Shown here piece after piece: positions 1 through 13,048 of a stretch of 13,048 nucleotides of DNA. Source of the stretch: a virus (Duplodnaviria; Heunggongvirae; Uroviricota; Caudoviricetes); IMG/VR virus record IMGVR_UViG_2675903352_000012; one strand, written 5' to 3'. The position numbers and the translations under genes are program-made. The number at the start of each line of letters is the position of its first letter. The first letter of the stretch is position 1. The notes beneath the pieces were generated by a model. The model was not told the DNA's origin, ran no database searches, and was given only the letters and a program-made list of their open reading frames with translations.

Positions 1-18
1 TCACGCCGCATCCGGCAT
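1..18. repeat. REP-like (repetitive extragenic palindromic) element, cut by the window edge
   Basis: Reverse complement of 1-18 is ATGCCGGATGCGGCGTGA, which matches the enterobacterial REP core GCCGGATGCGGCGTGA as I recall it. Only part of the element is inside the window. Confidence 0.45.
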
Positions 19-216
19 GAACAAAGCGCACGTTGTCTGGCCCCTTGCGGGTAAACGCGCCTGCCACAGTTTTTCACCGTTGCTCATGTTGTAAGCGCGC
101 AGGTAGTTATCTGCTGTAGCGGCGATAAACAGCACATTACCCGCAGTAGAGATCGGCCCGCCCAGCATCGGCATTCCCATATTGAACGGTACCGGAACGG
201 GCATCGGGAACGGCAT
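1..216 (-). pseudogene. Short ORF resembling an internal/C-terminal piece of PQQ-dependent quinoprotein glucose dehydrogenase (gene fragment)
   Basis: The translation (PFPMPVPVPFNMGMPMLGGPISTAGNVLFIAATADNYLRAYNMSNGEKLWQ) resembles the Gcd C-terminal propeller region as I recall it. The ORF is closed by an in-frame stop at 262-264 upstream and ends at 1-3 after about 13 divergent codons that run into the REP sequence, so it is at most about 87 codons and not a full gene. Confidence 0.4.
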
Positions 217-527
217 GCTGTCCTGCGGCGAACCAATGCGTTTCTTTTCACAAATTGAACTTTATTAACGGATTCCGCTTATGAATAGTTTTGCTGGTAT
301 ACTGCATGTCTTGCGCTTTGTTGCGGTGCCGAAACCCGCCCGTGCGAAGTGATTTGTTTTTAAATCATATGGTTAGAGATATGAAACATACTGTAGAAGT
401 AATGTTTTTTATGTTCCTGACTTTTCTAGTGTTTACCCGCTGAATATAAAAATCAATCAAAATCATTATGTTGTAGTGATTTTGTGTTCATGCTCGATTT
501 CATTTTTTCTGGATATTAATATTTCAC

Positions 528-549: not shown

Positions 550-561
550 ATCGGAACGGTG

Positions 562-1761
562 ATGATGTCTGGAACGAATAAGCTCAGCGACAGGAAACTA
601 AAGGCGCTGCAAGGAACGCATAGGGATCGTGTTGAAATGCTTGCTGACGGAGAGGGGTTAGGGGTCAGGTTATCAACTAAAGGGCATGTGAGCTGGGTTT
701 TTTCATATCGCCTTGGAGGGCGTGAGAGTTCAGTTATTCGTCTTACTCTAGGGAATTACCCTGATATTAGTCTGAAAGATGCCAGGATGTGGCGTGAGCG
801 TTGCCGTCAATGGTTGGCTAATGGTCTTGATCCAAAAATTGAACTCCAACTTTTTACTGAAGAATCCCGTGCTCCTGTTACTGTTCGAGATGCGTTGGAA
901 TATTGGTTGGTCAATTATGCAAGACATAAGCGCAAAGATGAGGAATTGATTAGGGCGCAATTCTGCAAACATGTCTACCCCAGAATAGGCCATTATCCGT
1001 TATCACGGTGCGATACTCGCCATTGGGTAAAATGTTTTGATGAGATTCGCGCTATAAGTTCAAAAACGGCGGGGCGTATGTTTCAACTCTCCAAGCAGGC
1101 ATTGCGGTTTTGCAATGTTCGGCGTTATGCCATCAGTGATGCCCTTGTTCATTTAACGTTAACCGATGTAGGGGAATCTGCCGGACAGCGCGACCGTGTT
1201 TTGAGTGATGCCGAACTATCAGATCTTTGGTATTTTGCAAAGGAGAAACATCGGGATATTTATTTTTCCAGATTAATAAAGTTGCTTATTGTCTTTGGGG
1301 CTAGAACTGTAGAGATTCGCCGTTCTCATTGGATTGAATGGGATTTTAATGAATGGGTTTGGATTGTTCCAAGAAATAACAGTAAAAGTAACAAAAAGAT
1401 TATTCGGCCAATTCCCGAAGGTATAAGAGACTGGTTAAAAGAGCTAAAACAGGAAACCGGGAGGACGGGCTTACTTTTGGGTGAGGAGAGAACGCATAGA
1501 GCTGTTTCTCTGAAAGGTCGCAGAATGTATAAAATATTCGGGCATAATGAAAAATGGACGCTACACGATTTAAGACGGACATTTTCAACTGGGTTAAACA
1601 ACATGGGGGTAATGCCTCATATTGTCGAGTCATTATTAGGTCACGTATATAATGCTGGCTCCGCAGAATTTAACTATAATCTTAGCCAGTATATCCCATT
1701 CAAATTAAAGGCTCTAAATGACTGGCTTGAATGTTTAGAAAAAATGGTTAAAGATAAATAA
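562..1761 (+). CDS. int: Tyrosine site-specific integrase, P4/CP4-57 type
   Basis: About 400 aa. The N-terminal region has the P4-integrase-like pattern (LSDRKLKAL...GLGVRLSTKG...ISLKDAR), and the C-terminus carries tyrosine-recombinase motifs HDLRRTF and LLGH. The track ORF begins at GTG 559; ATG codons at 562 and 565 are more likely starts. Confidence 0.9.
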   Translation: MMSGTNKLSDRKLKALQGTHRDRVEMLADGEGLGVRLSTKGHVSWVFSYRLGGRESSVIRLTLGNYPDISLKDARMWRERCRQWLANGLDPKIELQLFTEESRAPVTVRDALEYWLVNYARHKRKDEELIRAQFCKHVYPRIGHYPLSRCDTRHWVKCFDEIRAISSKTAGRMFQLSKQALRFCNVRRYAISDALVHLTLTDVGESAGQRDRVLSDAELSDLWYFAKEKHRDIYFSRLIKLLIVFGARTVEIRRSHWIEWDFNEWVWIVPRNNSKSNKKIIRPIPEGIRDWLKELKQETGRTGLLLGEERTHRAVSLKGRRMYKIFGHNEKWTLHDLRRTFSTGLNNMGVMPHIVESLLGHVYNAGSAEFNYNLSQYIPFKLKALNDWLECLEKMVKDK

Positions 1762-1777: not shown

Positions 1778-2356
1778 ATGACGTTACCACTAAGAGATTA
1801 CTATCCTATTGAGCGCGCGGCAAAGTTATTAGACTGCGATATTGATGATCTTATTCATTGGGCTGTGACAGGCTGCATTCGTATTTGTATAAAAATTGAA
1901 TCTGCATATGGAGTATTAAATATCCCAGATGAAAAAGATGTGGTTAATTTCGATTGTCTGCGTAAGTTTATGGATTCAGAACCATGTAAATCACGGTTAT
2001 CTGACCTTGATGCCATTTCAGAAAGGGCGGCAGAACACCATGGTTTTAATTATATAAAAACCAAGTCGAGAATTATATTTGATTCAATGTGCGAATCTTT
2101 AAGTCATTCATATGTAGCGCCCAAATTTGGTGACATAGCAATTGATACCGCATTTGCTTTGTTAAATTATTATAACAGGGGGTTATATTATGGGGAAAAT
2201 TATCACATATATAGTGTATATCGAATAGCAACGGATGAAAGAGCTGTGGCAGTTGTACCACCAGTATTTAAAGGTATTCAAGAAAAATACCATAAGTATT
2301 TTGTTGAAATAGGCGGCATTTTCGCTTTGGGGGGAAGTTTTTTTTGCCAACTATGA
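1778..2356 (+). CDS. Hypothetical protein, low GC; probably the 5' part of a frameshifted gene of about 350 codons
   Basis: ORF of 192 aa directly after the integrase. A second reading frame is open from 2313 to 2831 and overlaps this ORF's end; the overlap contains a G6 tract (2329-2334) and a T8 tract (2338-2345). A 1-nt deletion in either tract would fuse the two frames. Confidence 0.55.
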   Translation: MTLPLRDYYPIERAAKLLDCDIDDLIHWAVTGCIRICIKIESAYGVLNIPDEKDVVNFDCLRKFMDSEPCKSRLSDLDAISERAAEHHGFNYIKTKSRIIFDSMCESLSHSYVAPKFGDIAIDTAFALLNYYNRGLYYGENYHIYSVYRIATDERAVAVVPPVFKGIQEKYHKYFVEIGGIFALGGSFFCQL

Positions 2357-2558
2357 TTTTAATAAGAAGTTTAAGGCTAACCGAATAATTAATGGCAATA
2401 TTATAATTGCTTCTGACGTTGATATACATATAGGAGTAATTGTTACTGAGGATGTTTCTTTTGATATTGGTGATTTATATATCTTAAAGAATGATTTTTT
2501 AAAAATACAAAATGCTACAAGCTCCAATAGCGAGTTAAGAAAAGATTATGTTAATCCA

Positions 2559-2831
2559 TTGGCAGACACTTTATATTTGTGTGCGGGTAACAATATATTA
2601 AGTTCTGAGGATGGAGAGAAAGATATATGCACCAATAAAAACAATATAGAACGATTATCTAAAACAATGAAGGATTTTTTTCGTGCGATGCTTGTTATTC
2701 ATTATAAAGAACTCGAAAACAATCCGGTAAAACTTGCTGATATATTGACCGCGGAAGCAAAAGAGGCAGGACTCAATATGCGCTTTGATAAAAGTACTAT
2801 ATCAAGATGGATTAAGGCATCATCTCAGTAA
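2559..2831 (+). CDS. Hypothetical protein; probably the 3' part of the same frameshifted gene (frame open from 2313)
   Basis: The track ORF starts at TTG 2559, but the frame has no stop back to 2313 and the first ATG is not until 2667. Low GC like the upstream ORF. Confidence 0.35.
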   Translation: MADTLYLCAGNNILSSEDGEKDICTNKNNIERLSKTMKDFFRAMLVIHYKELENNPVKLADILTAEAKEAGLNMRFDKSTISRWIKASSQ

Positions 2832-2926
2832 GACCAGCAAGCATCTTAATAAGACCTTTAATACTTGCTTTCAAAACTCCGTAAAACAAAAATCTCCCCC
2901 GAAAGTTCAGAAACATAGGGGGAAAT

Positions 2927-3247
2927 ATGACTCAATCCGCATTCATTCCACCAACTCCAGAACAGCGCCGCACCATACTCGCCGAGTATGGCTTTGACTG
3001 CGAAGAACGCATCAGGGAAGAGAAGTGTAAAAAAATGACCACGCTTTCACGCTCCCGGCGCTGGGAACTGGAGAAGATCGGTGCTTTTCCTCCTCGTCAC
3101 TCTTTGGGGCGTTGCTCATGTACCTGGCTGTTAAGTGATGTTTTGTGGTGGCTACGTAATCCGCCAGTTATTGCCAAAGTGAATAACCCATACGAAAACG
3201 CCAAAAAGAAAAGGGAGAGAGAATCCGGTAGCGCCAGAGTTGAATAA
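2927..3247 (+). CDS. alpA: AlpA-family phage/island transcriptional regulator (excision regulator-like HTH protein)
   Basis: 106 aa. Segment MTTLSRSRRWELEKIGAFPPRHSLGRCSCTWLLSDVLWWL fits the AlpA/Vis-type HTH pattern (LSRST.Y.L...G.FP.P..LG.R...W...EV..W). AGGGGG precedes ATG 2927. Position after the integrase matches CP4-57/P4-like layouts. Confidence 0.75.
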   Translation: MTQSAFIPPTPEQRRTILAEYGFDCEERIREEKCKKMTTLSRSRRWELEKIGAFPPRHSLGRCSCTWLLSDVLWWLRNPPVIAKVNNPYENAKKKRERESGSARVE

Positions 3248-4925: not shown

Positions 4926-4950
4926 CCCCACTGCAAAAGGTGCAGTGGGG
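4926..4950 (+). terminator. Perfect 10-bp stem-loop (possible intrinsic terminator or attenuator) abutting the primase RBS
   Basis: CCCCACTGCA (4926-4935), loop AAAGG, TGCAGTGGGG (4941-4950), followed by TGGAGTTTTATATATG containing the GGAG RBS and ATG 4964. Confidence 0.45.
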
Positions 4951-4963
4951 TGGAGTTTTATAT

Positions 4964-7633
4964 ATGAAATCTGACATCAGAAAAGAGATTATTAACCGTC
5001 TTATCCGTGATTACAACTTCAAAGAAGAAAATAACTACCTCCGGTATGGTGTTTGTCCGCAATGTGGAAAGAAAGAGTTGTTTACCAGCCTTGAAAGGCC
5101 GTACATCGTACACTGTGGGCGCGAAAATAAATGCGGTACAGACCTGCTGACCAAAGAACTTTACCCGGATGTGTTTTCATCATGGTCAGATCGTTATATC
5201 AGCACGAAAGATGAGCCATATGCAGCGGCGGCAGCTTATCTTCAGGAAGCGCGCAATATTGCTGTGGGGCCACTGAAGGGCGCATTTACTCAGGAGCGAT
5301 ACCAGGACAAGGAAAACGGCGAACAGGCCGCTACTGTGCGTTTTACGCTGGCTGACGGCGTGTGGTGGGAGCGCATCATAGACCGACCGGGACGCTTCGC
5401 GCGCAAGGCGAATTTTTCCGGCAGCTACAAGGGGTTGTGGTGGGCTTATCCGGGAGCAGATTTAAGCAAGGCCAAAGAAATCTGGATTTGTGAGGGCATC
5501 TTTGATGCCATCAGCCTTAACCAGAATGGCATTGCGGCCATTTCTGTCATGTCTGCCGTGAACTACCCTGATAAGGCGCTGGAAGAGCTGGCGAAGCTGT
5601 GCGGGGATAATCCCCGTCCGGTTATTGTGTGGGCCCTGGATAACGGGCGTGCGGGTGAACGTTACGCGAAAAAACATGCAGAACGCAGCGCCGAAGACGG
5701 CTGGAGAACGGCAGCGGCGTTGCCAGGTAAAAACAACAATAAACGCGACTGGAATGATTTACACATCGCAGGAAAGCTGCGTGGCCATGATGTGAAAAGA
5801 TACCGTTATTACGGTGATTTATTGCTGGCGAAATCTCCAAGAGATAAGGCACTAATAATGTTTTCCTTTCGTGAGCGGAAGGAATTTCATTTTACTTTTG
5901 ATAACCGTGTTTTCTGGTTCAAGCTGGACATTGAGCGCCATATGAAGGCTGTTGAGCGTGTCATTAATGAGCGAAATGTTGACGAAGACGAAGCGCGCAA
6001 AATTGCACTTAAGGAATCCGGCGCTGTAAAAGAAATCGCAAACTGTAACCCAGTGCCGCTTTATTACATTCGAAACAATGACACGGATGAAGCATGGTAT
6101 TACTTCCGCGTTACATTCCCGGATGGTGCTACGGTGAAAAACACCTTTACATCAGGACAATTAACATCCTCATCTGAATTTAAAAAACGCCTGCTGCACG
6201 TGGCAAAAGGCGGTATTTATACCGGAACGACTACGCAGCTTGACGCATTAATAAAAAATGACCTTCCCGCAATAAAAGAGGTTATTGGTCAGGATTTTAT
6301 CGGATACAACAAGGGAATTGGGGCATGGCTGTTTAATGATATTGCCGTTTACAAGGGTAAAACTTATGAAATCAATGATGAGGATTATTTTGAAATTGAT
6401 GGCATAAACGCAAAACCATTAAGCGAAAAACCCACATTACAGATTAACTACAAAAAACCGGATGAATTTACAGCGTCCTGGGTGGAAGATCTCTGGCTGG
6501 CTTTTGGTGAAAAGGGAATTATTACCCTGGCTTTCTGGTTGGGCTCCCTGTTCAGCGAACAAATCCGGGATAAAGAAGAATCCTTCCCCTTCCTTGAAGT
6601 CACCGGGGAGCCCGGAACGGGTAAATCAACACTGATTGATTTTTGCTGGCGGCTGTGCGGTCGTGACAACTATGAAGGCGTTGATCCAACCAAAGGATCA
6701 GAGGCGGGCTGGAAGCGCACCTTTGGACAGGTCGCCGGATTACCTGTTGTTCTGATTGAAGCGGACCGGGGAGACAATGCGCAAAAAAGAGGTGCGTTTG
6801 ACTTCGATAACCTGAAAAGTCTCTATAACGGCGGCGGTATCGGCGTTCGTGGTGTTAAGGCCAACAATAACAACACCTATGATCCGGATTTTAAGGGCGC
6901 TATCGTGATTGCGCAGAATGCGCGGGTAAACGCCTCTCCGGCAATTATTGAGCGTCTGATACGCATATACACCGATAAAAAACGCCATTCACCTGATACC
7001 CGCCTGGCGGCGAGACGGCTGGAACTTTACCCCGTCGAGAAGGTATCTGGGTTTATTCACCGGGCGGTAAGTCAGGAACGGGCGATTATGCAAACGTTCC
7101 TGGAAGTATCTCCAGTTGAAACGGAGCGCCTTTGCGGATGCGAAAATATTCGCCATCCCCGCATCGCCAAAAATCACGCACAACTTATCGCGCTGGTCAG
7201 GGCGCTGAAATGCGTTATTGATATCCCGGATGAATGGCTTGATGCCACATGTCTGGAACTGGAACAAATGGCAACAGCGCAGGTTAAAGCGGCGGCGGCT
7301 GATTTACCGGAAGTGATGGAGTTCTGGGAGGCGTTCGACTTCCTGGACGGCATAACAAAATACGGTGTAAACCACTACGGCAAGGGATGCCGCGAGGGGA
7401 TTGCTATCAGTATTCCGCAACTGGCACAGGCTGCCGCTATTCACCGCGTGGAGATCCGAACTGACCGCGAAATGATTGAGTTGCTCGGAGCCGGACGTTC
7501 CCGACCTTTGACAGGCCGCAAAACCATTCGTAGTGAGGTCTCCAGACAGGCAAACGCCGGAAGAGGGGTCGCCGAGGCCAGAGAGCCGGAAGTACTGAAA
7601 TGCCGGATATTCAGTTACAAGGAGGGGCGTTAA
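4964..7633 (+). CDS. Bifunctional replication protein: zinc-finger/TOPRIM primase fused to a P-loop helicase (P4 alpha-like)
   Basis: About 889 aa. N-terminal CPQCGKKE...HCGRENKCG zinc-binding motif; TOPRIM-like IWICEGIFDAISL and ALDNGRAGER; Walker A GEPGTGKST and Walker B-like VVLIEAD in the C-terminal half. Start taken at ATG 4964 (GGAG RBS) rather than the track's 4940. Confidence 0.85.
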   Translation: MKSDIRKEIINRLIRDYNFKEENNYLRYGVCPQCGKKELFTSLERPYIVHCGRENKCGTDLLTKELYPDVFSSWSDRYISTKDEPYAAAAAYLQEARNIAVGPLKGAFTQERYQDKENGEQAATVRFTLADGVWWERIIDRPGRFARKANFSGSYKGLWWAYPGADLSKAKEIWICEGIFDAISLNQNGIAAISVMSAVNYPDKALEELAKLCGDNPRPVIVWALDNGRAGERYAKKHAERSAEDGWRTAAALPGKNNNKRDWNDLHIAGKLRGHDVKRYRYYGDLLLAKSPRDKALIMFSFRERKEFHFTFDNRVFWFKLDIERHMKAVERVINERNVDEDEARKIALKESGAVKEIANCNPVPLYYIRNNDTDEAWYYFRVTFPDGATVKNTFTSGQLTSSSEFKKRLLHVAKGGIYTGTTTQLDALIKNDLPAIKEVIGQDFIGYNKGIGAWLFNDIAVYKGKTYEINDEDYFEIDGINAKPLSEKPTLQINYKKPDEFTASWVEDLWLAFGEKGIITLAFWLGSLFSEQIRDKEESFPFLEVTGEPGTGKSTLIDFCWRLCGRDNYEGVDPTKGSEAGWKRTFGQVAGLPVVLIEADRGDNAQKRGAFDFDNLKSLYNGGGIGVRGVKANNNNTYDPDFKGAIVIAQNARVNASPAIIERLIRIYTDKKRHSPDTRLAARRLELYPVEKVSGFIHRAVSQERAIMQTFLEVSPVETERLCGCENIRHPRIAKNHAQLIALVRALKCVIDIPDEWLDATCLELEQMATAQVKAAAADLPEVMEFWEAFDFLDGITKYGVNHYGKGCREGIAISIPQLAQAAAIHRVEIRTDREMIELLGAGRSRPLTGRKTIRSEVSRQANAGRGVAEAREPEVLKCRIFSYKEGR

Positions 7634-7635
7634 AC

Positions 7636-8640
7636 ATGCCGATCAGAAAGATGCATGATGGGCGGTGGCTGCTCGATATCAGGCCATGCGGACGTAAAGG
7701 GAAGCGCATCAGAAGAATATTTGACAAAAAATCGATAGCTACAGCAACTGAACGGTACATCATAGCGAACGCCGAAAAGCGCGAGTTTATACAGGGCTAT
7801 CGCGACCGGAGAACGCTTAGCGATTTACTGGAATTGTGGTGGGTTTATCACGGTCAGCACAGGCGAAAGGCAAACACGGATAAACAGCAGCTTGGCAAAA
7901 TTATTAATGAGCTTGGAGCTGGCATGTTTGCGGTAGAACTCGACAAATTAAAAATCATTGCATGGCGATCGCAGAAAATTGCGGAAGGATTAAAGCCGTC
8001 CTCAGCAAACAGATACATGAACAGATTATCGGGGATGTTTACAGCCCTGAAAAAGATCGGTTTGTGGGATGCAGAGCATCCGGTTCGTGGTATTCCTGTT
8101 CTTTATGTAAAGCAGCAGGAAATGGCCTTTTTATCAAAAAACGAGGTCACATTGTTGCTTGACGGGCTGAATGGAGATCAACGAAGGGTTGCGCTCTTGT
8201 GTCTTTGTACCGGAGCCCGCTGGAGTGAGGCCAGCAGATTGCATGGAGAGCAAATAGTTCATCACAGAATAACGTTTCTGGAAACCAAAAACGGTAGAAA
8301 AAGAACGGTGCCTGTGTCGCAGGAAATATGCGATGCCGTAAAAACAAAAGAAACCGGGCGACTGTTTGATGTGAAGTACAGAGAGTTTTGCCGGGCATTA
8401 AAAAAAATAAAACCCGATTTACCGAGGGGGCAGGCTGCGCATGTATTGCGGCATACATTCGCCAGTCACTTTGTGATGAACGGTGGCAACATTCTTGCGC
8501 TACAAAAAATCCTTGGGCATGCGACAATTCAGCAGACTATGGCATACGCACATTTTGCACCGGATTATCTGGCAGATGCCATGAGATTTAACCCGGTAGC
8601 CAACATAGTGATCACCGAAGAAAAAGACCCAGTAGAGTAA
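7636..8640 (+). CDS. int: Tyrosine site-specific integrase, P2-type (second recombinase)
   Basis: About 334 aa. N-terminus MPIRKMHDGRWLLDIRPCGRKGKRIRRIFDKK resembles the P2 Int arm-binding N-terminus as I recall it. Catalytic motifs TGARWSEA, HVLRHTF, LGHATIQQTMAYAH. GGAGGGG RBS (7621-7627) lies inside the primase 3' end; ATG 7636 is 2 nt after the primase stop. Confidence 0.85.
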   Translation: MPIRKMHDGRWLLDIRPCGRKGKRIRRIFDKKSIATATERYIIANAEKREFIQGYRDRRTLSDLLELWWVYHGQHRRKANTDKQQLGKIINELGAGMFAVELDKLKIIAWRSQKIAEGLKPSSANRYMNRLSGMFTALKKIGLWDAEHPVRGIPVLYVKQQEMAFLSKNEVTLLLDGLNGDQRRVALLCLCTGARWSEASRLHGEQIVHHRITFLETKNGRKRTVPVSQEICDAVKTKETGRLFDVKYREFCRALKKIKPDLPRGQAAHVLRHTFASHFVMNGGNILALQKILGHATIQQTMAYAHFAPDYLADAMRFNPVANIVITEEKDPVE

Positions 8641-8876: not shown

Positions 8877-9186
8877 GGGGGGGGATGCGCAAAGCGGTTA
8901 CAACGGTTACAAATTTAGAATTACTTATTTTTGTATTATATATCAATATATTATAACTGGTCGGATGAGTTACAAAAGCGGTTACAACGCGGTTACATGT
9001 AACCGTTTTGTTAGGTTACAGGCGGTTACAGGTTAAGTTTTTAATTGATTGATAATAAAGTGCTTTTTGAAACCTGTAACCGTTGTAACCGCAAAGCGGT
9101 TACAAATAATATCCATTAAAATCATGTTGTTAAGTGGTGTTTTTGACTGTTGTAACCGTTGTAACCGCTTTGCGCACCCCCCACCG
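8877..9186. repeat. Iteron array bounded by ~35-bp imperfect inverted repeats (candidate replication origin/crr or recombinase arm-site region)
   Basis: Twelve perfect GGTTACA/TGTAACC copies, starting at 8896, 8905, 8980, 8991, 8999, 9014, 9024, 9075, 9084, 9098, 9151 and 9160, with 9-11 bp spacing in both orientations. The left arm (8877-8912, G8 + ATGCGCAAAGCGGTTACAACGGTTACA) is the near-exact inverse of the right arm (9151-9186). The interior is AT-rich. Confidence 0.7.
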
Positions 9187-9409
9187 GATTATGAGGCAGA
9201 GCCCCAAAACAACTGGCCTGACCTCCAACAAAAATGCAACATCAATCATTGATTTTTTGGGGGCTGTCAGTCACGGGGAGTTGCCCTGTTGTTTGGCAGA
9301 AAAATGAAGTATGTACATGCGCGGCGGGGATGGTAAAAAACGTAATACACGCGGCGCAGTTGCCATAAAAAATCTCTCAAAAGCACTCTTTTTGACGCTA
9401 TTGTTCATC

Positions 9410-9436
9410 TGCACAAAAGTGCACAAATTTGCACAA
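9410..9436. repeat. Three tandem 10-bp repeats of TGCACAA
   Basis: TGCACAA at 9410, 9420 and 9430, with a fourth copy at 9502. Non-coding region upstream of the ogr-like gene. Confidence 0.4.
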
Positions 9437-9798
9437 TTTTTTAGAGTAACTTTTTGCCCATCCGGCCCAGTACTGGCGCGCCCGGAGGGCGATTTCGTGC
9501 GTGCACAAAAAACGGTGAGTTTTTCGCGCGCAGGTGACGGGGGAACAGCACGCGTTTCAGGGGGTAAATTACATTTTCGCTAAAGGCTGCGGGAATGCCC
9601 CGACCGGGTTAGTTTTATCGCCAGCCAGAGCCGTTCTTACGGCAAGAGAGAACTGATACGGGGAATGTGACGAGTGAGCATGGGAACGGCGCGCCCGTGC
9701 GTAATACGCGGCGACTGCTGCGGGTTTATTTGATACAGCCAGAGGGGGCGGCAGAAGATATAATAGGTTAAATTTCACACCAGTAAGAGGAGCGTGAT

Positions 9799-9981
9799 AT
9801 GTCTTTCCCTTGCCCGGCCTGTGGCGCTTCAGCCCGCACCCGTGGTCGTTCGTTGGAAGAACACGAACAAAACATCCACAGAACGTATTACCAGTGCAAT
9901 AATATTGAGTGTGGGGCTTGTTTTTGTACGCTTGAGTCGTTTGTACGCATTACTAAGCGCAGGAAGTCGAAAACTTCATAG
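9799..9981 (+). CDS. ogr: Ogr/Delta-family zinc-finger late-gene transcriptional activator
   Basis: 60 aa, MSFPCPACGASARTRGRSLEEHEQNIHRTYYQCNNIECGACFCTLESFVRI. The C-x2-C-x22-C-x4-C spacing and the CP.C..A.ART.R...Y.QC.N..C...F...ES pattern match P2 Ogr / P4 Delta as I recall them. AGGAG RBS 9788-9792; TATAAT at 9759-9764. Confidence 0.75.
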   Translation: MSFPCPACGASARTRGRSLEEHEQNIHRTYYQCNNIECGACFCTLESFVRITKRRKSKTS

Positions 9982-10031
9982 TGATTTGTATAACACAGCC
10001 AGCGAGTGTGACCGGCTGCGTTATTTCTGTA

Positions 10032-10265
10032 TTACGTCGTGTGGTTCTGGTCATTTGCCCAGGCCCACACATCCCCCGCTACATTGCGCCCGTTGCAGTC
10101 TTCTTCCTGCGTTTTCCCGGCCTTAATTCCCTGACTGATAAACATTCTGACGCACTGGGAGTAGTTCATCTCTCTGTCCTGACATATCTGATTTATTTTA
10201 TGGTCGATTTCGTGCGGGATACGAATACAGCGTAATACGCATCGCATTTTCTTTTGTTTTTTCAT
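10032..10265 (-). CDS. Small DNA-binding regulator, probably ribbon-helix-helix (CopG/Arc/MetJ-like)
   Basis: 77 aa from the internal ATG at 10263-10265, with GGGAGG 7 nt upstream on the minus strand. MKKQKKMRCVLRCIRIPHEIDHKINQICQDREMNYSQCVRMFISQGI fits a beta-strand/helix/helix pattern. Divergent from the 10431 operon across a repeat-rich intergenic region. Confidence 0.45.
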   Translation of the reverse strand: MKKQKKMRCVLRCIRIPHEIDHKINQICQDREMNYSQCVRMFISQGIKAGKTQEEDCNGRNVAGDVWAWANDQNHTT

Positions 10266-10430
10266 CGTGTTGCCTCCCTGATTGTTTATGCCGGGATTTA
10301 ACACCCGCGATATAAGAAAGCGTAATACAACAGTATTGTGAGCGTATTACGAGAACAAAATCGGCTGGAATGTATTACGCAATATGGAAAAAATCGGCGT
10401 AAGTAAAAAAATGTATTACAGGAGCAAATA
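10229..10430. promoter_or_regulatory. Divergent promoter/operator region with repeated CGTAATAC / GTATTACG motifs
   Basis: Perfect 8-mers at 10231, 10321, 10344 (complement) and 10372 (complement), plus a partial copy at 10413; further copies at 9341 and 9700. Lies between the RHH-like gene and the 10431 operon. Chance expectation for one 8-mer in about 1.1 kb is far below one. Confidence 0.45.
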
Positions 10431-11141
10431 ATGGATATAACTCAGGCAAGCGCCGAACATCAGGTATGTAAAGCACAGTTTGATACAGCCATGGCAAAAC
10501 TCAGTGAACAGGAATCATTAATCACCAATCTGGAAGCAACTATCGAACAGACGAAAGGGGAGCTGGAATCTCTCGATCGTGACTGGCAGAACTCAATCCT
10601 GTCTGCGCTGGGCGTAAAAACGGAAGCCTCCGCGAAATTATCCATTCAGGCGGGTGTGGCGCGAGAAAATCTTGAGCGTCTGCGGGTGCTGCATGATGAG
10701 GCGCGCATCAGGCTACTGGAGTGTCGTTATAACGCGGCAGAGGCTGGTTGTGCTTACGAAAGCATTGATAATAAGTTACGGGCAGAGATATTTGCAAAAG
10801 CACTTCCCGAACTGATTAACGAGCTGACCCCTGCTCTGTTATTGATTCGTGGTTTATGTGAGCTGCTTGGCCAGCCGCTGTATAACGCAGAAAAGAAAAT
10901 ATGCGAAACACTGAAAGCGACAGATACTGCTGAAAGTGTCGGGATGATTCGCGGCCGGATTAACGATACCGAAAGCGACACCTCCAGCCCGCTGCGTTAT
11001 TGCCCGGAGAAACTCCCGGATTCGGTAAGCCGCGCAATCAGGAACGCCCCTTCACCTGTACAATGGAGCGCAGCGCGACAGAATCCAGAAAAAATGCGCG
11101 ACCTTGCGGAGGGCAGAGAACTCTGCCGGGGGTGGCAGTAA
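10431..11141 (+). CDS. Hypothetical coiled-coil-rich protein (236 aa); possibly Psu/Sid-like or scaffold-like
   Basis: AGGAG RBS 10420-10424. The stop overlaps the downstream start (TAATG at 11139-11143). The N-terminal half has heptad-like, helix-rich composition. Any similarity to P4 Psu is a weak recollection only. Confidence 0.6.
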   Translation: MDITQASAEHQVCKAQFDTAMAKLSEQESLITNLEATIEQTKGELESLDRDWQNSILSALGVKTEASAKLSIQAGVARENLERLRVLHDEARIRLLECRYNAAEAGCAYESIDNKLRAEIFAKALPELINELTPALLLIRGLCELLGQPLYNAEKKICETLKATDTAESVGMIRGRINDTESDTSSPLRYCPEKLPDSVSRAIRNAPSPVQWSAARQNPEKMRDLAEGRELCRGWQ

Positions 11142-12412
11142 TGGGCGGTCTGAATACTCCACATTTGCACGGCGCTGATATAGTGAGCCGACTCAGGGGA
11201 TTAATGTCCCGGAATCGCCTGAAAGCAAACACAGCAAGCATAAGCGATGAGACGCGTCGCGCGCTGGACAATGAATATCAAAAACTGGAGCGTGAGCTTG
11301 AGCTTCACACCCTGCATACTGCAAGCGGTGGGGGTAATAACGACGGCATTGAGCGTTATAATTGCACTGCTGATTCTGTTGTATCACAACGAAATCAACA
11401 GGCTCAGATGGTTTTCAATTGCGCTATCGAGTCGATAACCGGAAAACATCCGAAGGATTTGCACTTTTCCGGTGACACTGCGCGCTATTCGTCAGAAGTT
11501 GAACCCGTTCCTCGCCAGAGTGCAACGCTTGCCAGTGGATGGCAGGCAAATTTCCTTGCTGAAATAACTCCCGTGCCTGTTACGGATATATCAGGTCGGG
11601 TTGTGCTGGTAGACGCTTCGGGGCCGTTGGCACGTACATCGCCACCTCACGAGCGCCGTTCGCCACTACAGGCGCATTCACTGGTTTCAAGGGGCTACCG
11701 CTGCGAGCAGGTTAATTTTGATTTTGCGCTGAACTACGACAATGTTGATGCTCACGCATCCGCAAACGGTCTTGAAGGAAGCGCACGGGCTGCTTTTGAA
11801 CGCCGGAAATGGCTGGATTTGATTCAGATTGGTTTTAACGGTACGCACTATGCCGATACATCAGATCCCGGAACATATCCGGGGCGTGATGATTGCGGCG
11901 TGGGCTGGTTGCAGAAGTTTCGAAATGAAGCGGCGGGAAGGGTTATCAGCGGCCTTTCTGTTTCATCACCGAAAAGTAATACACGCGGTACACACCATAC
12001 GATAGATGCGCTCGTTCTGGATGCCTGGCAATCCATGATTGATGAACAGTGGCAGGAAGGCATTGTGGCCGTATGCAGTCACAATACGCTGGTCCGTAAG
12101 CAATGGCCTTTGATAAACCGTCTTGATCCATCGCAGATGAATCAGGAAATTTTGCTTAACGAGGAAATCATTAAAAATCCTGTTCTGGGGAATCTCCCGG
12201 CTGTGACCGTTCCATTTTTCCCGGACAATGCTGTATTGATCACACCTCTTGCCAATCTGTGTCTGTACTGGCAGCGTGGTTCCGTTCGTGGCCTGGTAAA
12301 AAACGAGCCTCAGTATAATCGTCTCGCGTTCTATGAGTCCTGTAACCTTGACTGGGTGGTGGGGCAATATGAAGCAGGGTGCTTACTGGATGGGATTGAC
12401 TGGAAAGAATAG
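11141..12412 (+). CDS. P2 gpN-like major capsid protein homolog with an N-terminal extension of about 90 aa
   Basis: 423 aa from ATG 11141. The C-terminal 270 aa carry motifs I associate with the P2-family capsid protein: CEQVNFDF, IGFNG, GVGWLQKFRNEAAGRV, IDALVLDA, GNLPAVTVPFFPDNAVLIT, YESCNLDWVVGQYEAGCL. The N-terminal part contains a coiled-coil-like stretch (RRALDNEYQKLERELEL). Based on memory; needs a homology search. Confidence 0.55.
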   Translation: MGGLNTPHLHGADIVSRLRGLMSRNRLKANTASISDETRRALDNEYQKLERELELHTLHTASGGGNNDGIERYNCTADSVVSQRNQQAQMVFNCAIESITGKHPKDLHFSGDTARYSSEVEPVPRQSATLASGWQANFLAEITPVPVTDISGRVVLVDASGPLARTSPPHERRSPLQAHSLVSRGYRCEQVNFDFALNYDNVDAHASANGLEGSARAAFERRKWLDLIQIGFNGTHYADTSDPGTYPGRDDCGVGWLQKFRNEAAGRVISGLSVSSPKSNTRGTHHTIDALVLDAWQSMIDEQWQEGIVAVCSHNTLVRKQWPLINRLDPSQMNQEILLNEEIIKNPVLGNLPAVTVPFFPDNAVLITPLANLCLYWQRGSVRGLVKNEPQYNRLAFYESCNLDWVVGQYEAGCLLDGIDWKE

Positions 12413-12434
12413 CAAGGAAATTTCCGGTAACGTT

Positions 12435-12457
12435 GAGGGCTTCTCAGCCCTCCTTTT
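12435..12457 (+). terminator. Hairpin plus T-tract between the convergent capsid-like and toxin genes
   Basis: GAGGGCT (12435-12441), loop TCTC, AGCCCTC (12446-12452), then CTTTT. It overlaps the toxin stop codon. Confidence 0.45.
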
Positions 12458-12800
12458 ACTTAAGCAGATGCTCTCCGCCAATCAGGGTAATGACTCTTTC
12501 AAGCACATCATTAAATACCCCATCTTCTGCCTCTGTGATTAAGCGCGCTTTCCGCTGACGCCAGTCAAGGGTTTGAATGAGTGTGGTTGCTACAACGCTG
12601 GGGGCGTCCAGATTTGTTACCGGAACTTCTGTGGGAGCATTTCGTATGCTCGTACTTATGGGGCAGCATATGACAAGCCCGGTGAGTCGGTTATATTGCT
12701 CATGGGACAGTATGAGTGCCGGGCGATACTTTCCGATCTCTTTTCCTTTCTGCGGCTCAAAATCCAGCCAGCAAATATCACCACGCTTAGGTACAAACAT
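12456..12800 (-). CDS. MazF/PemK-family endoribonuclease toxin (type II TA)
   Basis: 114 aa. RGDICWLDFEPQKGKEIGKYRPALILS...TGLVICCPISTS matches the PemK/MazF N-terminal pattern (RGD.v..dF.P..G.E....RPa.vlS). GAGGAGG RBS lies inside the antitoxin 3' end; the start overlaps the antitoxin stop. Confidence 0.85.
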   Translation of the reverse strand: MFVPKRGDICWLDFEPQKGKEIGKYRPALILSHEQYNRLTGLVICCPISTSIRNAPTEVPVTNLDAPSVVATTLIQTLDWRQRKARLITEAEDGVFNDVLERVITLIGGEHLLK

Positions 12801-13048
12801 CAGTAATCAACCTCCTCATTGAATGGGGTGGCAATTTCGTCCGCGTGCGCTGTAACTGGCGTTATCCCGGCGAGTAATTCGGCTTCACTCAGGCGACGGC
12901 GTGCAGGCTTTTCTACAAAAAGCCCCTTTTCACTAATTTCAACGTTGACGATATCACCCACTGAAAAACCCGGAACGGTTTTAAGGTTTCCCGTTAGTCG
13001 AAGGGCAATGCTATTACCCCATTTTTGCAATACAACCTGTGTGCGCAT
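12800..13048 (-). CDS. MazE/AbrB-fold antitoxin (SpoVT/AbrB family)
   Basis: 82 aa. LQKWGNSIALRLTGNLKTVPGFSVGDIVNVEI matches the MazE/ChpS pattern (KRWGNS.AVRIP). The start codon is the last three bases of the window, so the promoter lies outside it. Confidence 0.8.
   Translation of the reverse strand: MRTQVVLQKWGNSIALRLTGNLKTVPGFSVGDIVNVEISEKGLFVEKPARRRLSEAELLAGITPVTAHADEIATPFNEEVDY

What the first reader, a model, noticed from the sequence alone, without database searches (positions are those of the whole stretch)
10032..12457. Orphan P2-type capsid homolog with an N-terminal extension in a satellite-like element
The gene at 11141-12412 appears to encode a P2 gpN-family major capsid homolog. 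It has no neighbouring terminase, portal, scaffold-protease or head-completion genes. It sits in a two-gene operon behind a coiled-coil protein, downstream of an Ogr/Delta activator, next to a divergent small regulator, and is followed by a MazEF-like pair. P4-type satellites normally borrow the helper's capsid protein rather than encode one, and the region after the late genes is where such elements carry variable anti-phage cargo. Possible roles are a capsid mimic that poisons or senses helper/competitor assembly, a satellite-owned capsid subunit, or a size-redirecting factor.
Basis: partly seen in the sequence, partly recalled or inferred. Interest (0 to 1): 0.8.

Follow-up and report, generated by a model that had tools for sequence, protein, structure and literature searches.

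The report
Phage satellite carrying own capsid gene
A 13-kb phage satellite integrated in E. coli encodes a relative of P4's capsid-shrinking Sid protein and, fused to it in one operon, its own diverged copy of the helper phage's major capsid protein; the papers I could search treat P4-type satellites as borrowing all capsid protein from the helper.

Summary
Window 11141-12412 encodes a 423-aa P2-family major capsid protein homolog (Pfam PF05125, E 2e-72; 34% identical to P2 gpN over gpN 3-340). It carries about 85-110 extra N-terminal residues. No portal, terminase, scaffold-protease or head-completion gene is nearby.

The window is almost a whole satellite, 12,953 bp between att repeats, inserted at the 5' end of hpt. 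It has a P4-type integrase, AlpA, a primase, an iteron origin, an Ogr/Delta activator and a 160-bp block about 81% identical to the portal-proximal (cos-position) region of P88-like Peduoviridae. These are the likely helpers.

The four-gene module (Ogr/Delta, small divergent gene, Sid-like, capsid-like) is present in 13 of 13 satellite loci from at least eight enterobacterial genera. It is absent from 25 of 25 true prophage loci. Both genes are under purifying selection.

Best reading: a core morphogenesis module in which a Sid-like cage and a satellite-owned capsid subunit build small heads. It is not defence cargo and not a prophage remnant. I found no published description. I class it as a new variant of a known kind.

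The parts
381..404 (+). attL core: a duplicated copy of the first 24 nt of hpt (ATGAAACATACTGTAGAAGTAATG). The partner copy (attR) lies about 290 bp beyond the window end.
   Evidence: A 32-nt direct repeat sits 12,953 bp apart in L001; the right copy overlaps the hpt start codon. Exact position in the window.
559..1761 (+). P4-type tyrosine integrase with an arm-binding domain
   Evidence: PF13356 plus PF00589. BLASTP against P4 Int gives E 2e-17.
2927..3247 (+). AlpA-family regulator/excisionase
   Evidence: PF05930 at E 3e-7, above its cut-off. phrog_2790 at E 5e-30.
4940..7633 (+). Primase-helicase-type replication protein (Toprim; relatives also carry Zn_Ribbon_Prim and DUF927). The RefSeq start corresponds to window position 4964.
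   Evidence: Similarity to P4 alpha is only local (E 2e-4).
8896..9166 (.). Candidate replication origin: 12 GGTTACA iterons on both strands
   Evidence: 14 copies in the window against 1.2 expected; 12 of them fall in this 270-bp stretch.
9398..9570 (+). cos-like packaging block: three TGCACAA repeats plus the core GCGCGCAGGTGACGGGGGAACAGC (9526-9549).
   Evidence: The core is conserved, with one or two substitutions in some members, in satellite loci from E. coli, Klebsiella, Erwinia and Salmonella. The block is about 81% identical over 160 bp to a non-coding block about 300 bp beyond the 3' end of the portal gene of P88-like phages and prophages. The 19-mer GGTGACGGGGGAACAGCAC matches the P2 cos sequence at 14 of 19 positions (my count).
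9799..9981 (+). Ogr/Delta-type zinc-finger late-gene activator (single domain, 60 aa)
   Evidence: PF04606 at E 2e-11. Present at the same position in 13 of 13 satellite loci.
10032..10265 (-). Small divergent gene (77 aa), possibly a ribbon-helix-helix regulator
   Evidence: Only weak CopG/RHH hits (E 0.04-0.15). A homolog at 32-41% identity sits in the same position in 13 of 13 satellite loci.
10266..10430 (.). Control region of the Sid-like/capsid operon: GTAATAC/GTATTAC repeats and an ACAAAA box shared with the P88 late P/O promoter region. No sigma-70-like promoter was found here.
10431..11141 (+). Sid-family protein (236 aa), inferred external capsid scaffold
11141..12412 (+). Satellite-lineage P2-family major capsid protein homolog (423 aa): N-terminal extension of about 85-110 aa plus a complete HK97-type body
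   Evidence: The satellite sequences group as one clade. dN/dS 0.12-0.20 in the comparisons not affected by a wrong start call. The equivalog model TIGR01551 is not reached, at 132 bits against a cut-off of 220.
12435..12452 (+). Terminator-like hairpin that closes the two-gene operon
12456..13048 (-). MazF/PemK toxin (12456-12800) and MazE-like antitoxin (12800-13048): accessory cargo at the right end of the element
   Evidence: PF02452 at E 4e-25. NF007312 MazE at E 3.5e-4. This slot holds different genes in related satellites, for example UDG in Klebsiella and a MazEF pair in the opposite orientation in Salmonella.

Best explanation
The window is a P4-type phage satellite, 12,953 bp between its att repeats and inserted at the 5' end of hpt. 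It parasitises P88-like (Xuanwuvirus-type) P2-family phages.

**Shown by computation.**
- The element has its own integrase, AlpA, replication protein, iteron origin and Ogr/Delta activator.
- It has a copy of the helper's portal-proximal (cos-position) block.
- It has a translationally coupled operon encoding a Sid-family protein followed by a full-length, diverged, selectively maintained P2-family capsid protein.
- It has no other head, tail or lysis genes.

**Inferred.**
- When a helper is induced or infects, helper Ogr and the satellite's own activator switch on the operon.
- The Sid-like protein binds the apex of the satellite's own capsid subunit, the region that corresponds to the gpN 'sir loop'. 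It ties capsomers into a small, probably T=4, procapsid.
- This procapsid is built on helper-supplied portal and scaffold-protease.
- Helper terminase cuts the shared cos and fills the small head with the 13-kb genome. That genome is 0.36 of the P88 genome, against 0.35 for P4 relative to P2.
- Helper tails complete the particle.

**Left open.**
- Whether the shell is made only of the satellite subunit or is a mixture with helper capsid protein.
- The role of the N-terminal helical extension. It may be a built-in scaffolding (delta-like) or docking segment. Some lineages lack it.
For: **It is a satellite.**
- Island content and borders.
- The cos-like block is about 81% identical to the portal-proximal block of P88-like phages. 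Its core is conserved in the satellite loci.
- 37 of 53 E. coli genomes that carry the satellite hold at least one extra copy of that block. About 20% of all genomes hold one.
- The Sid-like/capsid pair itself is single-copy in nearly every genome, so the extra copies are not copies of this element.

**The partner is Sid-family.**. The family's invariant C-terminal PSPxQ motif aligns with Sid residues 219-224 (TPAQRK), the segment that touches the gpN sir loop.

**The capsid homolog is complete and maintained.**
- It aligns to gpN residues 3-340.
- 18 positions are invariant across 33 satellite and phage sequences.
- dN/dS is 0.12-0.20.
- One cluster alone holds 764 intact 423-aa members.

**The pair is core.** 13 of 13 satellite loci carry Delta, the small gene, the Sid-like gene and the capsid homolog, and none carries Q, P, O, M or L. 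25 of 25 phage loci show the reverse.

**Hints of a specific Sid-like/capsid interface.** Two of the six positions diagnostic for the satellite clade fall at the start of the sir loop, at gpN 187-188.

**Operon structure.** TAATG overlap, a terminator, and no sigma-70 promoter but a helper-late-promoter-like box upstream.

**Precedent.** SaPIbov5 Ccm is a satellite-encoded capsid homolog that is built into small capsids (PMC8569155).
Against: - There is no experimental evidence of particles, of small heads, or of either protein being in them.
- The AF2 model of the capsid homolog is poor (pLDDT 57), so lattice competence is judged from sequence only.
- The residue before the presumed gpO cleavage site (F31 in gpN) is not conserved in the satellite clade.
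- The gpN K64/E102 inter-capsomer pair is S/R in the window protein, although E102 also varies among phages.
- P4 shows that Sid alone can redirect helper capsid protein, so the need for a satellite subunit is unexplained.
- One-base translational coupling suggests roughly equimolar output. That fits about 60 copies of each per particle better than the roughly 4:1 ratio a whole T=4 shell would need. This is inference only.
- The N-terminal extension is variable and is missing from the roughly 360-aa versions.
- The cos assignment rests on position and similarity, not on mapped DNA ends.
- The co-occurrence count is inflated by clonally related genomes.
Confidence: 0.6

Rival explanations
1. 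Ccm-like division of labour. The shell is built mainly from helper capsid protein, and the satellite subunit takes only special positions, such as the pentons or the roughly 60 Sid-contacting hexamer positions. From there, together with the Sid-like cage, it forces the small geometry.
For: [quoted passage not shown] The one-base coupling of the Sid-like and capsid genes suggests similar copy numbers. The satellite encodes no scaffold, protease or portal, so its subunit must fit the helper's assembly line.
Against: Satellite capsids are at most 46% identical to any sampled helper-type capsid protein. Nothing in the sequence singles out a penton or hexamer role. This rival overlaps with the best explanation and differs only in shell composition.
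Confidence: 0.25
2. Interference only. The capsid homolog is a dominant-negative decoy that co-assembles with or titrates helper capsid, scaffold or portal proteins and so suppresses helper or competitor phage. It is not part of the satellite's own particles.
For: Satellites commonly block their helpers. The homolog is diverged, has an unusual N-terminus, and does not reach the equivalog cut-off for true P2 capsid proteins.
Against: It is always paired and translationally coupled with a Sid-family scaffold. The whole fold is kept under purifying selection, which goes beyond what a poison requires. The element carries a helper-type cos-like block and has a one-third genome size, which together imply it needs small heads. 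There is no hit to known defence models.
Confidence: 0.1
3. Anti-phage defence cargo. The capsid-like protein would be a sensor or bait, working with the neighbouring MazEF pair or another effector against unrelated phages.
For: P4-like satellites carry defence hotspots (PMC9122126). A toxin-antitoxin pair lies immediately downstream.
Against: The capsid gene is conserved while the downstream slot varies or is empty: UDG in Klebsiella, a MazEF pair in the opposite orientation in Salmonella, and a single 82-aa gene before hpt in the second E. coli variant. MazEF is convergently transcribed and separated by a terminator. There is no PADLOC hit.
Confidence: 0.03
4. A decaying remnant of the head operon of a P2-like prophage that happens to lie beside a genomic island.
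For: RefSeq annotates it simply as 'P2 family phage major capsid protein'.
Against: No other phage structural gene lies within 10 kb in any of the 13 loci. The satellite sequences form one deep clade. dN/dS is 0.12-0.20. The ORF is intact in hundreds of genomes. The gene lies inside the att-bounded 12.95-kb element.
Confidence: 0.02

Closest known systems
Satellite phage P4 (Sid, Delta, Psu; helper P2)
   Same: Both are integrative elements of about 12-13 kb with a P4-type integrase, AlpA/Vis, their own primase-type replication protein and iteron origin, an Ogr/Delta activator and a copy of the helper's cos region. Both have a Sid-family all-helical protein of about 240 aa. The satellite-to-helper genome ratio is about 0.35 in both.
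   Different: This element carries its own P2-family capsid gene where P4 has none. It has no Psu. Gene order is delta, small gene, sid-like, capsid rather than sid, delta, psu. Delta is single-domain (60 aa against 166). The replication protein is barely similar to P4 alpha. The cos-like block matches P88-like phages, not P2. The Sid-like protein is recognisable only by profile and structure comparison.
SaPIbov5 Ccm (Staphylococcus aureus; helper phage phi12)
   Same: Both are single capsid-protein homologs encoded by a cos-type satellite that has no other head genes. Both have an N-terminal extra segment. Ccm is built into small capsids and is the size and shape determinant (PMC8569155).
   Different: The capsid lineage is unrelated (HK97-like with a delta domain, against P2 family). 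The host is Gram-positive and the element is a PICI. Ccm acts alone, whereas here the homolog is coupled to a Sid-type external scaffold.
[quoted passage not shown]
   Same: These satellites also encode a major capsid protein. PmCI172 has a capsid homolog and makes small heads with a Mu-like helper (PMC6092414).
   Different: cf-PICIs carry a full head module: capsid, portal, protease, connectors and terminase subunits. This element carries the capsid protein alone, and tblastn finds no portal, terminase, scaffold or head-completion gene. PmCI172 has no Sid-like protein (PMC6893505).
P2 gpN and other Peduoviridae major capsid proteins
   Same: Same Pfam family and HK97-type fold elements. The satellite protein is colinear with gpN residues 3-340 and shares 18 invariant residues with phage capsid proteins.
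   Different: Identity is 34-46%. The satellite sequences form a clade of their own. They have an added N-terminal segment of about 85-110 aa and lack the C-terminal tail. The window protein has an altered and shorter sir loop. The gene is never next to O, M, L, P or Q.

Membership tests
P2-family major capsid protein (Pfam PF05125) | Score above the Pfam gathering threshold across the capsid domain | tested here: met
   244.6 bits against a cut-off of 27, covering profile positions 38-327 of 327. gpN 7jw1_A is found at E 2e-56.
P2-family major capsid protein, functional equivalog (TIGR01551) | Score above the curated equivalog cut-off | tested here: not met
   132.4 bits against a cut-off of 219.65.
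P2-family major capsid protein, functional equivalog (TIGR01551) | Encoded in a head operon with scaffold-protease O, terminase M and P, portal Q and head-completion L | tested here: not met
   None of these five genes occurs in the 13 satellite loci, while all are present in the full-length phage loci. Island content is shown.
P4-like satellite | Integrase, AlpA-type regulator and Ogr/Delta activator | tested here: met
   PF13356 plus PF00589, PF05930 and PF04606.
P4-like satellite | Alpha-type primase-helicase | tested here: inconclusive
   A Toprim primase-type protein of 889-897 aa is present. It shares only local similarity with P4 alpha (E 2e-4 around the Walker A region).
P4-like satellite | Sid (size determination protein) | tested here: met
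P4-like satellite | Psu (decoration / polarity suppression protein) | tested here: not met
   No window protein that I scanned hits PF07455, whereas P4 Psu scores E 1e-88 in the same kind of scan. No Psu domain appears in any related locus.
P4-like satellite | Epsilon (helper derepression protein) | tested here: inconclusive
   The window's small ORFs have no Pfam hit. The Erwinia relative has PF25738 Derepression and DUF5375.
P4-like satellite | Carries the helper's cos site | tested here: inconclusive
   There is no P2/P4 cos within 3 mismatches. A conserved block about 81% identical to the portal-proximal region of P88-like phages is present. Cohesive ends have not been mapped.
Sid/Psu family | Binds hexamers of the capsid protein and forms an external cage | not testable with these tools
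   The only hint is that the invariant PSPxQ motif aligns with the Sid segment that contacts gpN, residues 219-224.
Ccm-like satellite capsid homolog | Satellite-encoded homolog of the helper's major capsid protein, with no other head genes | tested here: met
Ccm-like satellite capsid homolog | Incorporated at specific lattice positions, with the N-terminal domain removed by the helper protease | not testable with these tools
   The VEP-type motif after the gpN cleavage site is partly kept (SEVEPVP), but the residue before it is not conserved.
Capsid-forming PICI | Own portal, protease, head-tail connectors and terminase small subunit | tested here: not met

The most novel reading that the evidence does not exclude
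This is a previously unrecognised lineage of P4-type satellites, helped by P88-like Peduoviridae. It has taken over the capsid shell itself. A co-evolving pair, an ancestral single Sid/Psu-type cage protein and a satellite-owned capsid subunit, builds small heads largely or wholly from satellite protein on helper portal, protease and terminase. The satellite would then be insensitive to helper 'sir'-type escape mutations. It would be a natural intermediate between P4, which has no head genes, and capsid-forming PICIs, which have all of them.
Probability: 0.35. Interest if true: 0.75.

Novelty: new variant of a known kind. Interest (0 to 1): 0.66.

Why it matters
P4 is the textbook case of a satellite that encodes no structural protein and reshapes the helper's own capsid protein with Sid. 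This family keeps a Sid-type protein but adds its own capsid subunit. That raises several directly testable questions:
- Why does a satellite need its own subunit?
- Does a Sid-like cage recognise satellite protein or helper protein?
- Can diverged P2-family subunits co-assemble in one shell?
- How did Sid and Psu arise? This family has a single Sid/Psu-type gene.

It also identifies P88-like prophages as probable helpers with their own satellites. The helper-type cos-position block is present in about 20% of complete E. coli genomes.

The Sid-like gene is not found by plain sequence search against P4 Sid (BLASTP E 0.5). Homology-based satellite finders that rely on Sid and Psu may therefore miss or mis-score such elements; I could not run one to check.

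In practical terms, a two-gene module that may specify a small head is of interest for engineered transducing particles.

Tried and rejected
1. **P2/P4 cos 19-mer.** There is no match within 3 mismatches, and short-word BLAST of the P4 and P2 cos regions against the window gave only noise. The cos-like block was found instead as a conserved non-coding block.
2. **N-terminal extension as a fused piece of scaffold gpO.** gpO is the gene upstream of N in P2. BLASTP gave E 1.3 and hhalign against 30 gpO homologs gave probability 0.4%, so I rejected the idea.
3. **AF2 model of the capsid homolog.** With a 24-sequence alignment the pLDDT was 57. That is too poor for fold comparison, so the model was not used beyond the secondary structure of the N-terminus.
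5. **Canonical Ogr site TGT-N12-ACA.** It is absent upstream of the operon. Only a looser ACAAAA box is shared with the P88 late promoter region.
6. **PADLOC.** It gave nothing for the capsid homolog or the small divergent gene, and only a coiled-coil artefact for the Sid-like protein.
7. **dN/dS of the N-terminus for L096/L099 and L097/L101.** I discarded these values. My start-codon choice for L099 and L101 ran into non-coding sequence, and those proteins are really the short form of about 360 aa.
8. **The 'deletion in the sir loop' as a satellite hallmark.** I withdrew this. Most satellites have the same loop length as P88-type phage capsids, and only the window, Salmonella and second E. 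coli variants are shorter.
9. **P0225.** It appeared to carry ten repeats of the Sid-like C-terminus but is an unrelated tandem-repeat protein.
Full report
**1. The observation**

The ORF at 11141-12412 (+) is real.
- It matches Pfam PF05125 (Phage_cap_P2) at E 1.8e-72, far above the gathering score, over profile positions 38-327 of 327. It also matches phrog_70 'major head protein' at E 9e-77.
- BLASTP against P2 gpN aligns residues 86-419 with gpN 3-340 at 34% identity (E 1e-68). phmmer against all PDB sequences finds gpN of the P4 procapsid structure 7jw1 at E 2e-56.
- In 50,697 phage records every match is below 60% identity, and the best are about 35-39%.

The first 85-110 residues have no counterpart in phage capsid proteins. 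In the AF2 model, which is otherwise poor (pLDDT 57), they form two helices (12-29 and 36-61, pLDDT 65-84) followed by a disordered linker.

The 236-aa gene (10431-11141) ends in TAA, which overlaps the capsid ATG by one base. A GC-rich hairpin with a T-rich tail follows the capsid stop at 12435-12452. No sigma-70-like promoter precedes the pair.

**2. The element**

The window is 99.1% identical to a stretch of E. coli strain 08_3323, where the island lies between gcd and hpt. A 32-nt direct repeat 12,953 bp apart brackets it. The right copy is the start of hpt and the left copy is at window 381-404, so the element inserted into the 5' end of hpt and restores it.

Gene content, left to right:
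- P4-type integrase (BLASTP to P4 Int E 2e-17)
- AlpA
- an Icd-like protein
- small ORFs
- a Toprim primase-type protein
- a second tyrosine recombinase
- twelve GGTTACA iterons in 270 bp
- a conserved non-coding block (see section 3)
- Ogr/Delta, the small divergent gene, the 236-aa gene and the capsid homolog
- MazEF

No portal, terminase, scaffold-protease, head-completion, tail or lysis gene is present.

**3. The helper**

The P2/P4 cos 19-mer is absent. Aligning the region upstream of Ogr/Delta from relatives in E. coli, Klebsiella, Erwinia and Salmonella revealed a conserved non-coding block. It contains three TGCACAA repeats and the core GCGCGCAGGTGACGGGGGAACAGC, at window 9526-9549.
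- The block is about 81% identical over 160 bp to a non-coding stretch of phage P88 and its relatives (Xuanwuvirus, Peduoviridae). That stretch lies about 300 bp beyond the 3' end of the portal gene, which is the position cos occupies in P2.
- Two randomly sampled E. coli matches at 80-82% identity are P88-like prophages with the same layout.
- By my count the 19-mer within the core matches P2 cos at 14 of 19 positions.
- The block occurs in 1150 of 5426 complete E. coli genomes. 56 of them match at 90% identity or more (the satellites) and the rest at 60-90%.
- 37 of the 53 listed satellite genomes carry at least one additional copy, against about 20% of genomes overall. The Sid-like/capsid pair itself is single-copy in nearly every genome (61 places in 57 genomes).

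I infer that P88-like phages are the helpers and that this block is the shared packaging site. The ends have not been mapped, and the genome sample is clonally biased.

The element is 0.36 of the P88 genome (35,814 bp). P4 relative to P2 is 0.35.

**4. The partner is a Sid homolog**

The 236-aa protein has no Pfam or PHROG hit. Pairwise BLASTP to P4 Sid is colinear but not significant (E 0.5).

A full HMMER scan of 1.84 billion cluster representatives found only about 20 relatives. Most are 236-276 aa long and 23-39% identical.

A profile of 17 family members gives these results:
- hhalign against a 15-member Sid alignment: probability 73%, E 3e-5.
- hmmsearch against all 177,635 distinct PDB sequences: Sid (7jw1_E) is the top hit, at E 0.059, colinear over profile 14-166 and Sid 17-183.

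AF2 with a 14-sequence alignment gives a confident model (pLDDT 93.4, pTM 0.78). It is a long helical hairpin (3-58 and 65-146) followed by short helices. That is the architecture described for Sid (PMC7552001).

| Search against the PDB | Sid (7jw1) | Psu (3rx6) | Other hits |
|---|---|---|---|
| Foldseek | rank 1; TM 0.49/0.49 over 242 columns | rank 2 | – |

The Foldseek E values on their own are no better than those of coiled-coil noise. The agreement of rank, coverage, two programs, two sequence methods, protein length and genomic context is what makes the case.

In a global profile alignment, the family's invariant C-terminal motif PSPxQ falls on Sid 219-224 (TPAQRK). That segment contacts the gpN sir loop. 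This point is suggestive only.

**5. The pair is conserved core, not cargo**

Protein search shows a separate group of long capsid homologs (360-497 aa, 41-52% identical to the window protein). They come from Escherichia, Salmonella, Klebsiella, Erwinia, Pectobacterium and Symbiopectobacterium. A score gap separates them from genuine phage capsid proteins.

Contexts from four lineages show the same module after a primase gene: Ogr/Delta (+), a 76-107-aa gene (-), a gene of about 240 aa (+) and the capsid homolog (+). The Erwinia island also carries homologs of P4 epsilon (Derepression) and ORF106.

One scan of 185,579 species genomes returned 39 loci. With tblastn:
- All 13 loci whose capsid is at least 42% identical have the Sid-like gene, Delta and the small gene upstream, and none of Q, P, O, M or L.
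- All 25 loci whose capsid is at most 38% identical have none of the three satellite genes. Every full-length locus among them has Q, P, O, M and L; the truncated contigs show only some of these.
- One Symbiopectobacterium locus looks degraded.

In a neighbour-joining tree the satellite capsids form one clade. The closest phage proteins are the P88-like group (mean 40-42%, maximum 46%). Diversity within the satellite clade (minimum 38%) is as large as the distance between P2 and P88 (42%).

dN/dS is 0.12-0.20 for the capsid gene in the comparisons not affected by a wrong start call, and 0.09-0.59 for the Sid-like gene; the highest values rest on 14 or fewer differences. The N-terminal 50 codons evolve faster than the core.

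Variable genes sit elsewhere. Some lie between the replication gene and the cos-like block (DUF4238, HicAB). Others lie at the right end (MazEF, UDG; the Erwinia locus has GmrSD and a type I R-M system downstream, possibly outside the element).

**6. How it probably works**

- *Shown:* the parts list and their conservation.
- *Inferred:* late activation, binding of the Sid-like protein to the satellite's own subunit, small heads, and packaging by helper terminase.

Weak support for a dedicated interface: two of the six residues that are diagnostic for the satellite clade fall at gpN 187-188, inside the sir loop (183-224). The window protein also has a shortened and recoded loop, with D206T, Y207H, L221M and the acidic 189-191 replaced by VSS.

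Upstream of the operon the satellites share an ACA(ACA)AAA box with the P88 P/O late-promoter region, 75-108 nt before the start codon.

Whether the shell is all-satellite or mixed, as with Ccm pentons in SaPIbov5, cannot be decided here. The one-base coupling hints at similar copy numbers of the two proteins, which would fit about 60 copies of each.

The N-terminal extension is not derived from scaffold gpO. It carries lineage-specific low-complexity repeats in one E. coli variant and is absent from the forms of about 360 aa. It cannot be universally essential, and a delta-domain-like or docking role is a guess.

**7. What is known**

Surveys of P4-like satellites and their hotspots list int, alpA, alpha, epsilon, sid, delta and psu as core genes. 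One of them states that P4 lacks structural genes, and none mentions a capsid homolog (PMC8628076, PMC10085698, PMC9122126, PMC13586616).

A review notes that no obviously Sid-like proteins are known outside P4-like elements (PMC6893505). Full-text searches for gpN or capsid homologs in P4-like satellites found nothing relevant.

Satellite-encoded capsid homologs are known in other families: Ccm in SaPIbov5, PmCI172, and cf-PICIs. The library does not hold most subscription papers, so an earlier description cannot be excluded.

**8. Verdict**

What is new here is the identification of:
- the partner as a Sid homolog;
- the element as a nearly complete 12.95-kb satellite of P88-like phages, with its own copy of their cos-position block;
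- the Sid-like/capsid pair as the conserved morphogenesis core of a multi-genus satellite lineage.

It is a new variant of a known kind, combining P4-type piracy with a Ccm-type owned capsid subunit.

Noticed in passing
window 8896-9166: Twelve GGTTACA iterons on both strands lie within 270 bp (14 in the whole window against 1.2 expected), embedded in longer repeats such as CGCAAAGCGGTTACAA. This is probably the satellite's replication origin, downstream of the primase gene.
   Followed up: partly
window 9311-9583: RefSeq annotates a 90-aa hypothetical protein here. The ORF lies over the conserved non-coding cos-like block shared with P88-like phages, so it is probably not a gene.
   Followed up: partly
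window 9342-10413 and 11976: The heptamer GTAATAC/GTATTAC occurs ten times here. Four copies lie in the 165-bp region between the divergent 77-aa gene and the Sid-like gene. A 17-nt version (AAA[C/A]GTAATACACGCGG) recurs at about 9338 and, inside the capsid gene, at about 11972. The Salmonella relative has GTATTACACGCG at the equivalent promoter. These are possibly operators for the 77-aa protein.
   Followed up: partly
window 7600-8640: A second tyrosine recombinase (Int_N plus Phage_integrase, phrog_1) lies directly after the primase gene. It is detected in nine of the 13 related satellite loci and not in the other four, so it is accessory. Its role is unknown.
   Followed up: partly
window 1-246: The left flank is only a fragment of gcd. 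Window 47-246 matches an internal part of gcd in strain 08_3323 at 91.5%, and about 2.1 kb of that gene is missing between this fragment and the att site. In the source genome gcd therefore appears truncated and more diverged than the island.
   Followed up: partly
window about 529-552, with a partner beyond the window end (L001 4807-4830 and 17527-17550): The tandem GTGTATCAAT motif (GTGTATCAATGCGTGTATCAATAT) is present just inside both ends of the element. These are likely arm-type integrase binding sites.
   Followed up: no
window 1778-2900: This AT-rich stretch (GC 32-37%) carries ORFs of 192 aa and 90 aa. The near-identical island in strain 08_3323 has one 350-aa hypothetical gene here. 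The window copy may be disrupted by indels: the two sequences differ by 31 alignment gaps overall.
   Followed up: no
L002/L094/L095, L008/L096/L097 and window/L093 (capsid and Sid-like genes): In closely related satellite pairs, synonymous divergence of the capsid gene is about 2.7 to 6 times that of the adjacent Sid-like gene in four of five pairs (0.07 vs 0.012; 0.15 vs 0.028; 0.97 vs 0.36; 0.90 vs 0.31). It is about equal in the fifth pair (0.035 vs 0.028). This suggests a recombination boundary between the two genes.
   Followed up: no
P0009 and P0012 (E. coli variants of the capsid homolog, 497 and 474 aa; locus L005): The linker between the N-terminal helices and the capsid body contains tandem low-complexity repeats of the form SSHSESGEFS.S.PLASSARTAS. 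The extension varies in length between lineages.
   Followed up: no
P0004 (534 aa, from a Logan assembly): This protein joins the N-terminal 360 residues or so of the satellite primase to the C-terminal 175 residues or so of the capsid homolog. It is evidently a deletion derivative of the same element.
   Followed up: no
L132 and L133 (P88-like prophages), about 5400-8050 and 6370-7450: In P88-like prophages the genes around the cos-like block, between the ParM/partition genes and the portal gene, differ from one prophage to the next: DUF4760 plus hypothetical genes in one and an ead/Ea22-like gene in the other. This resembles the cos-adjacent hotspot described for P2.
   Followed up: no
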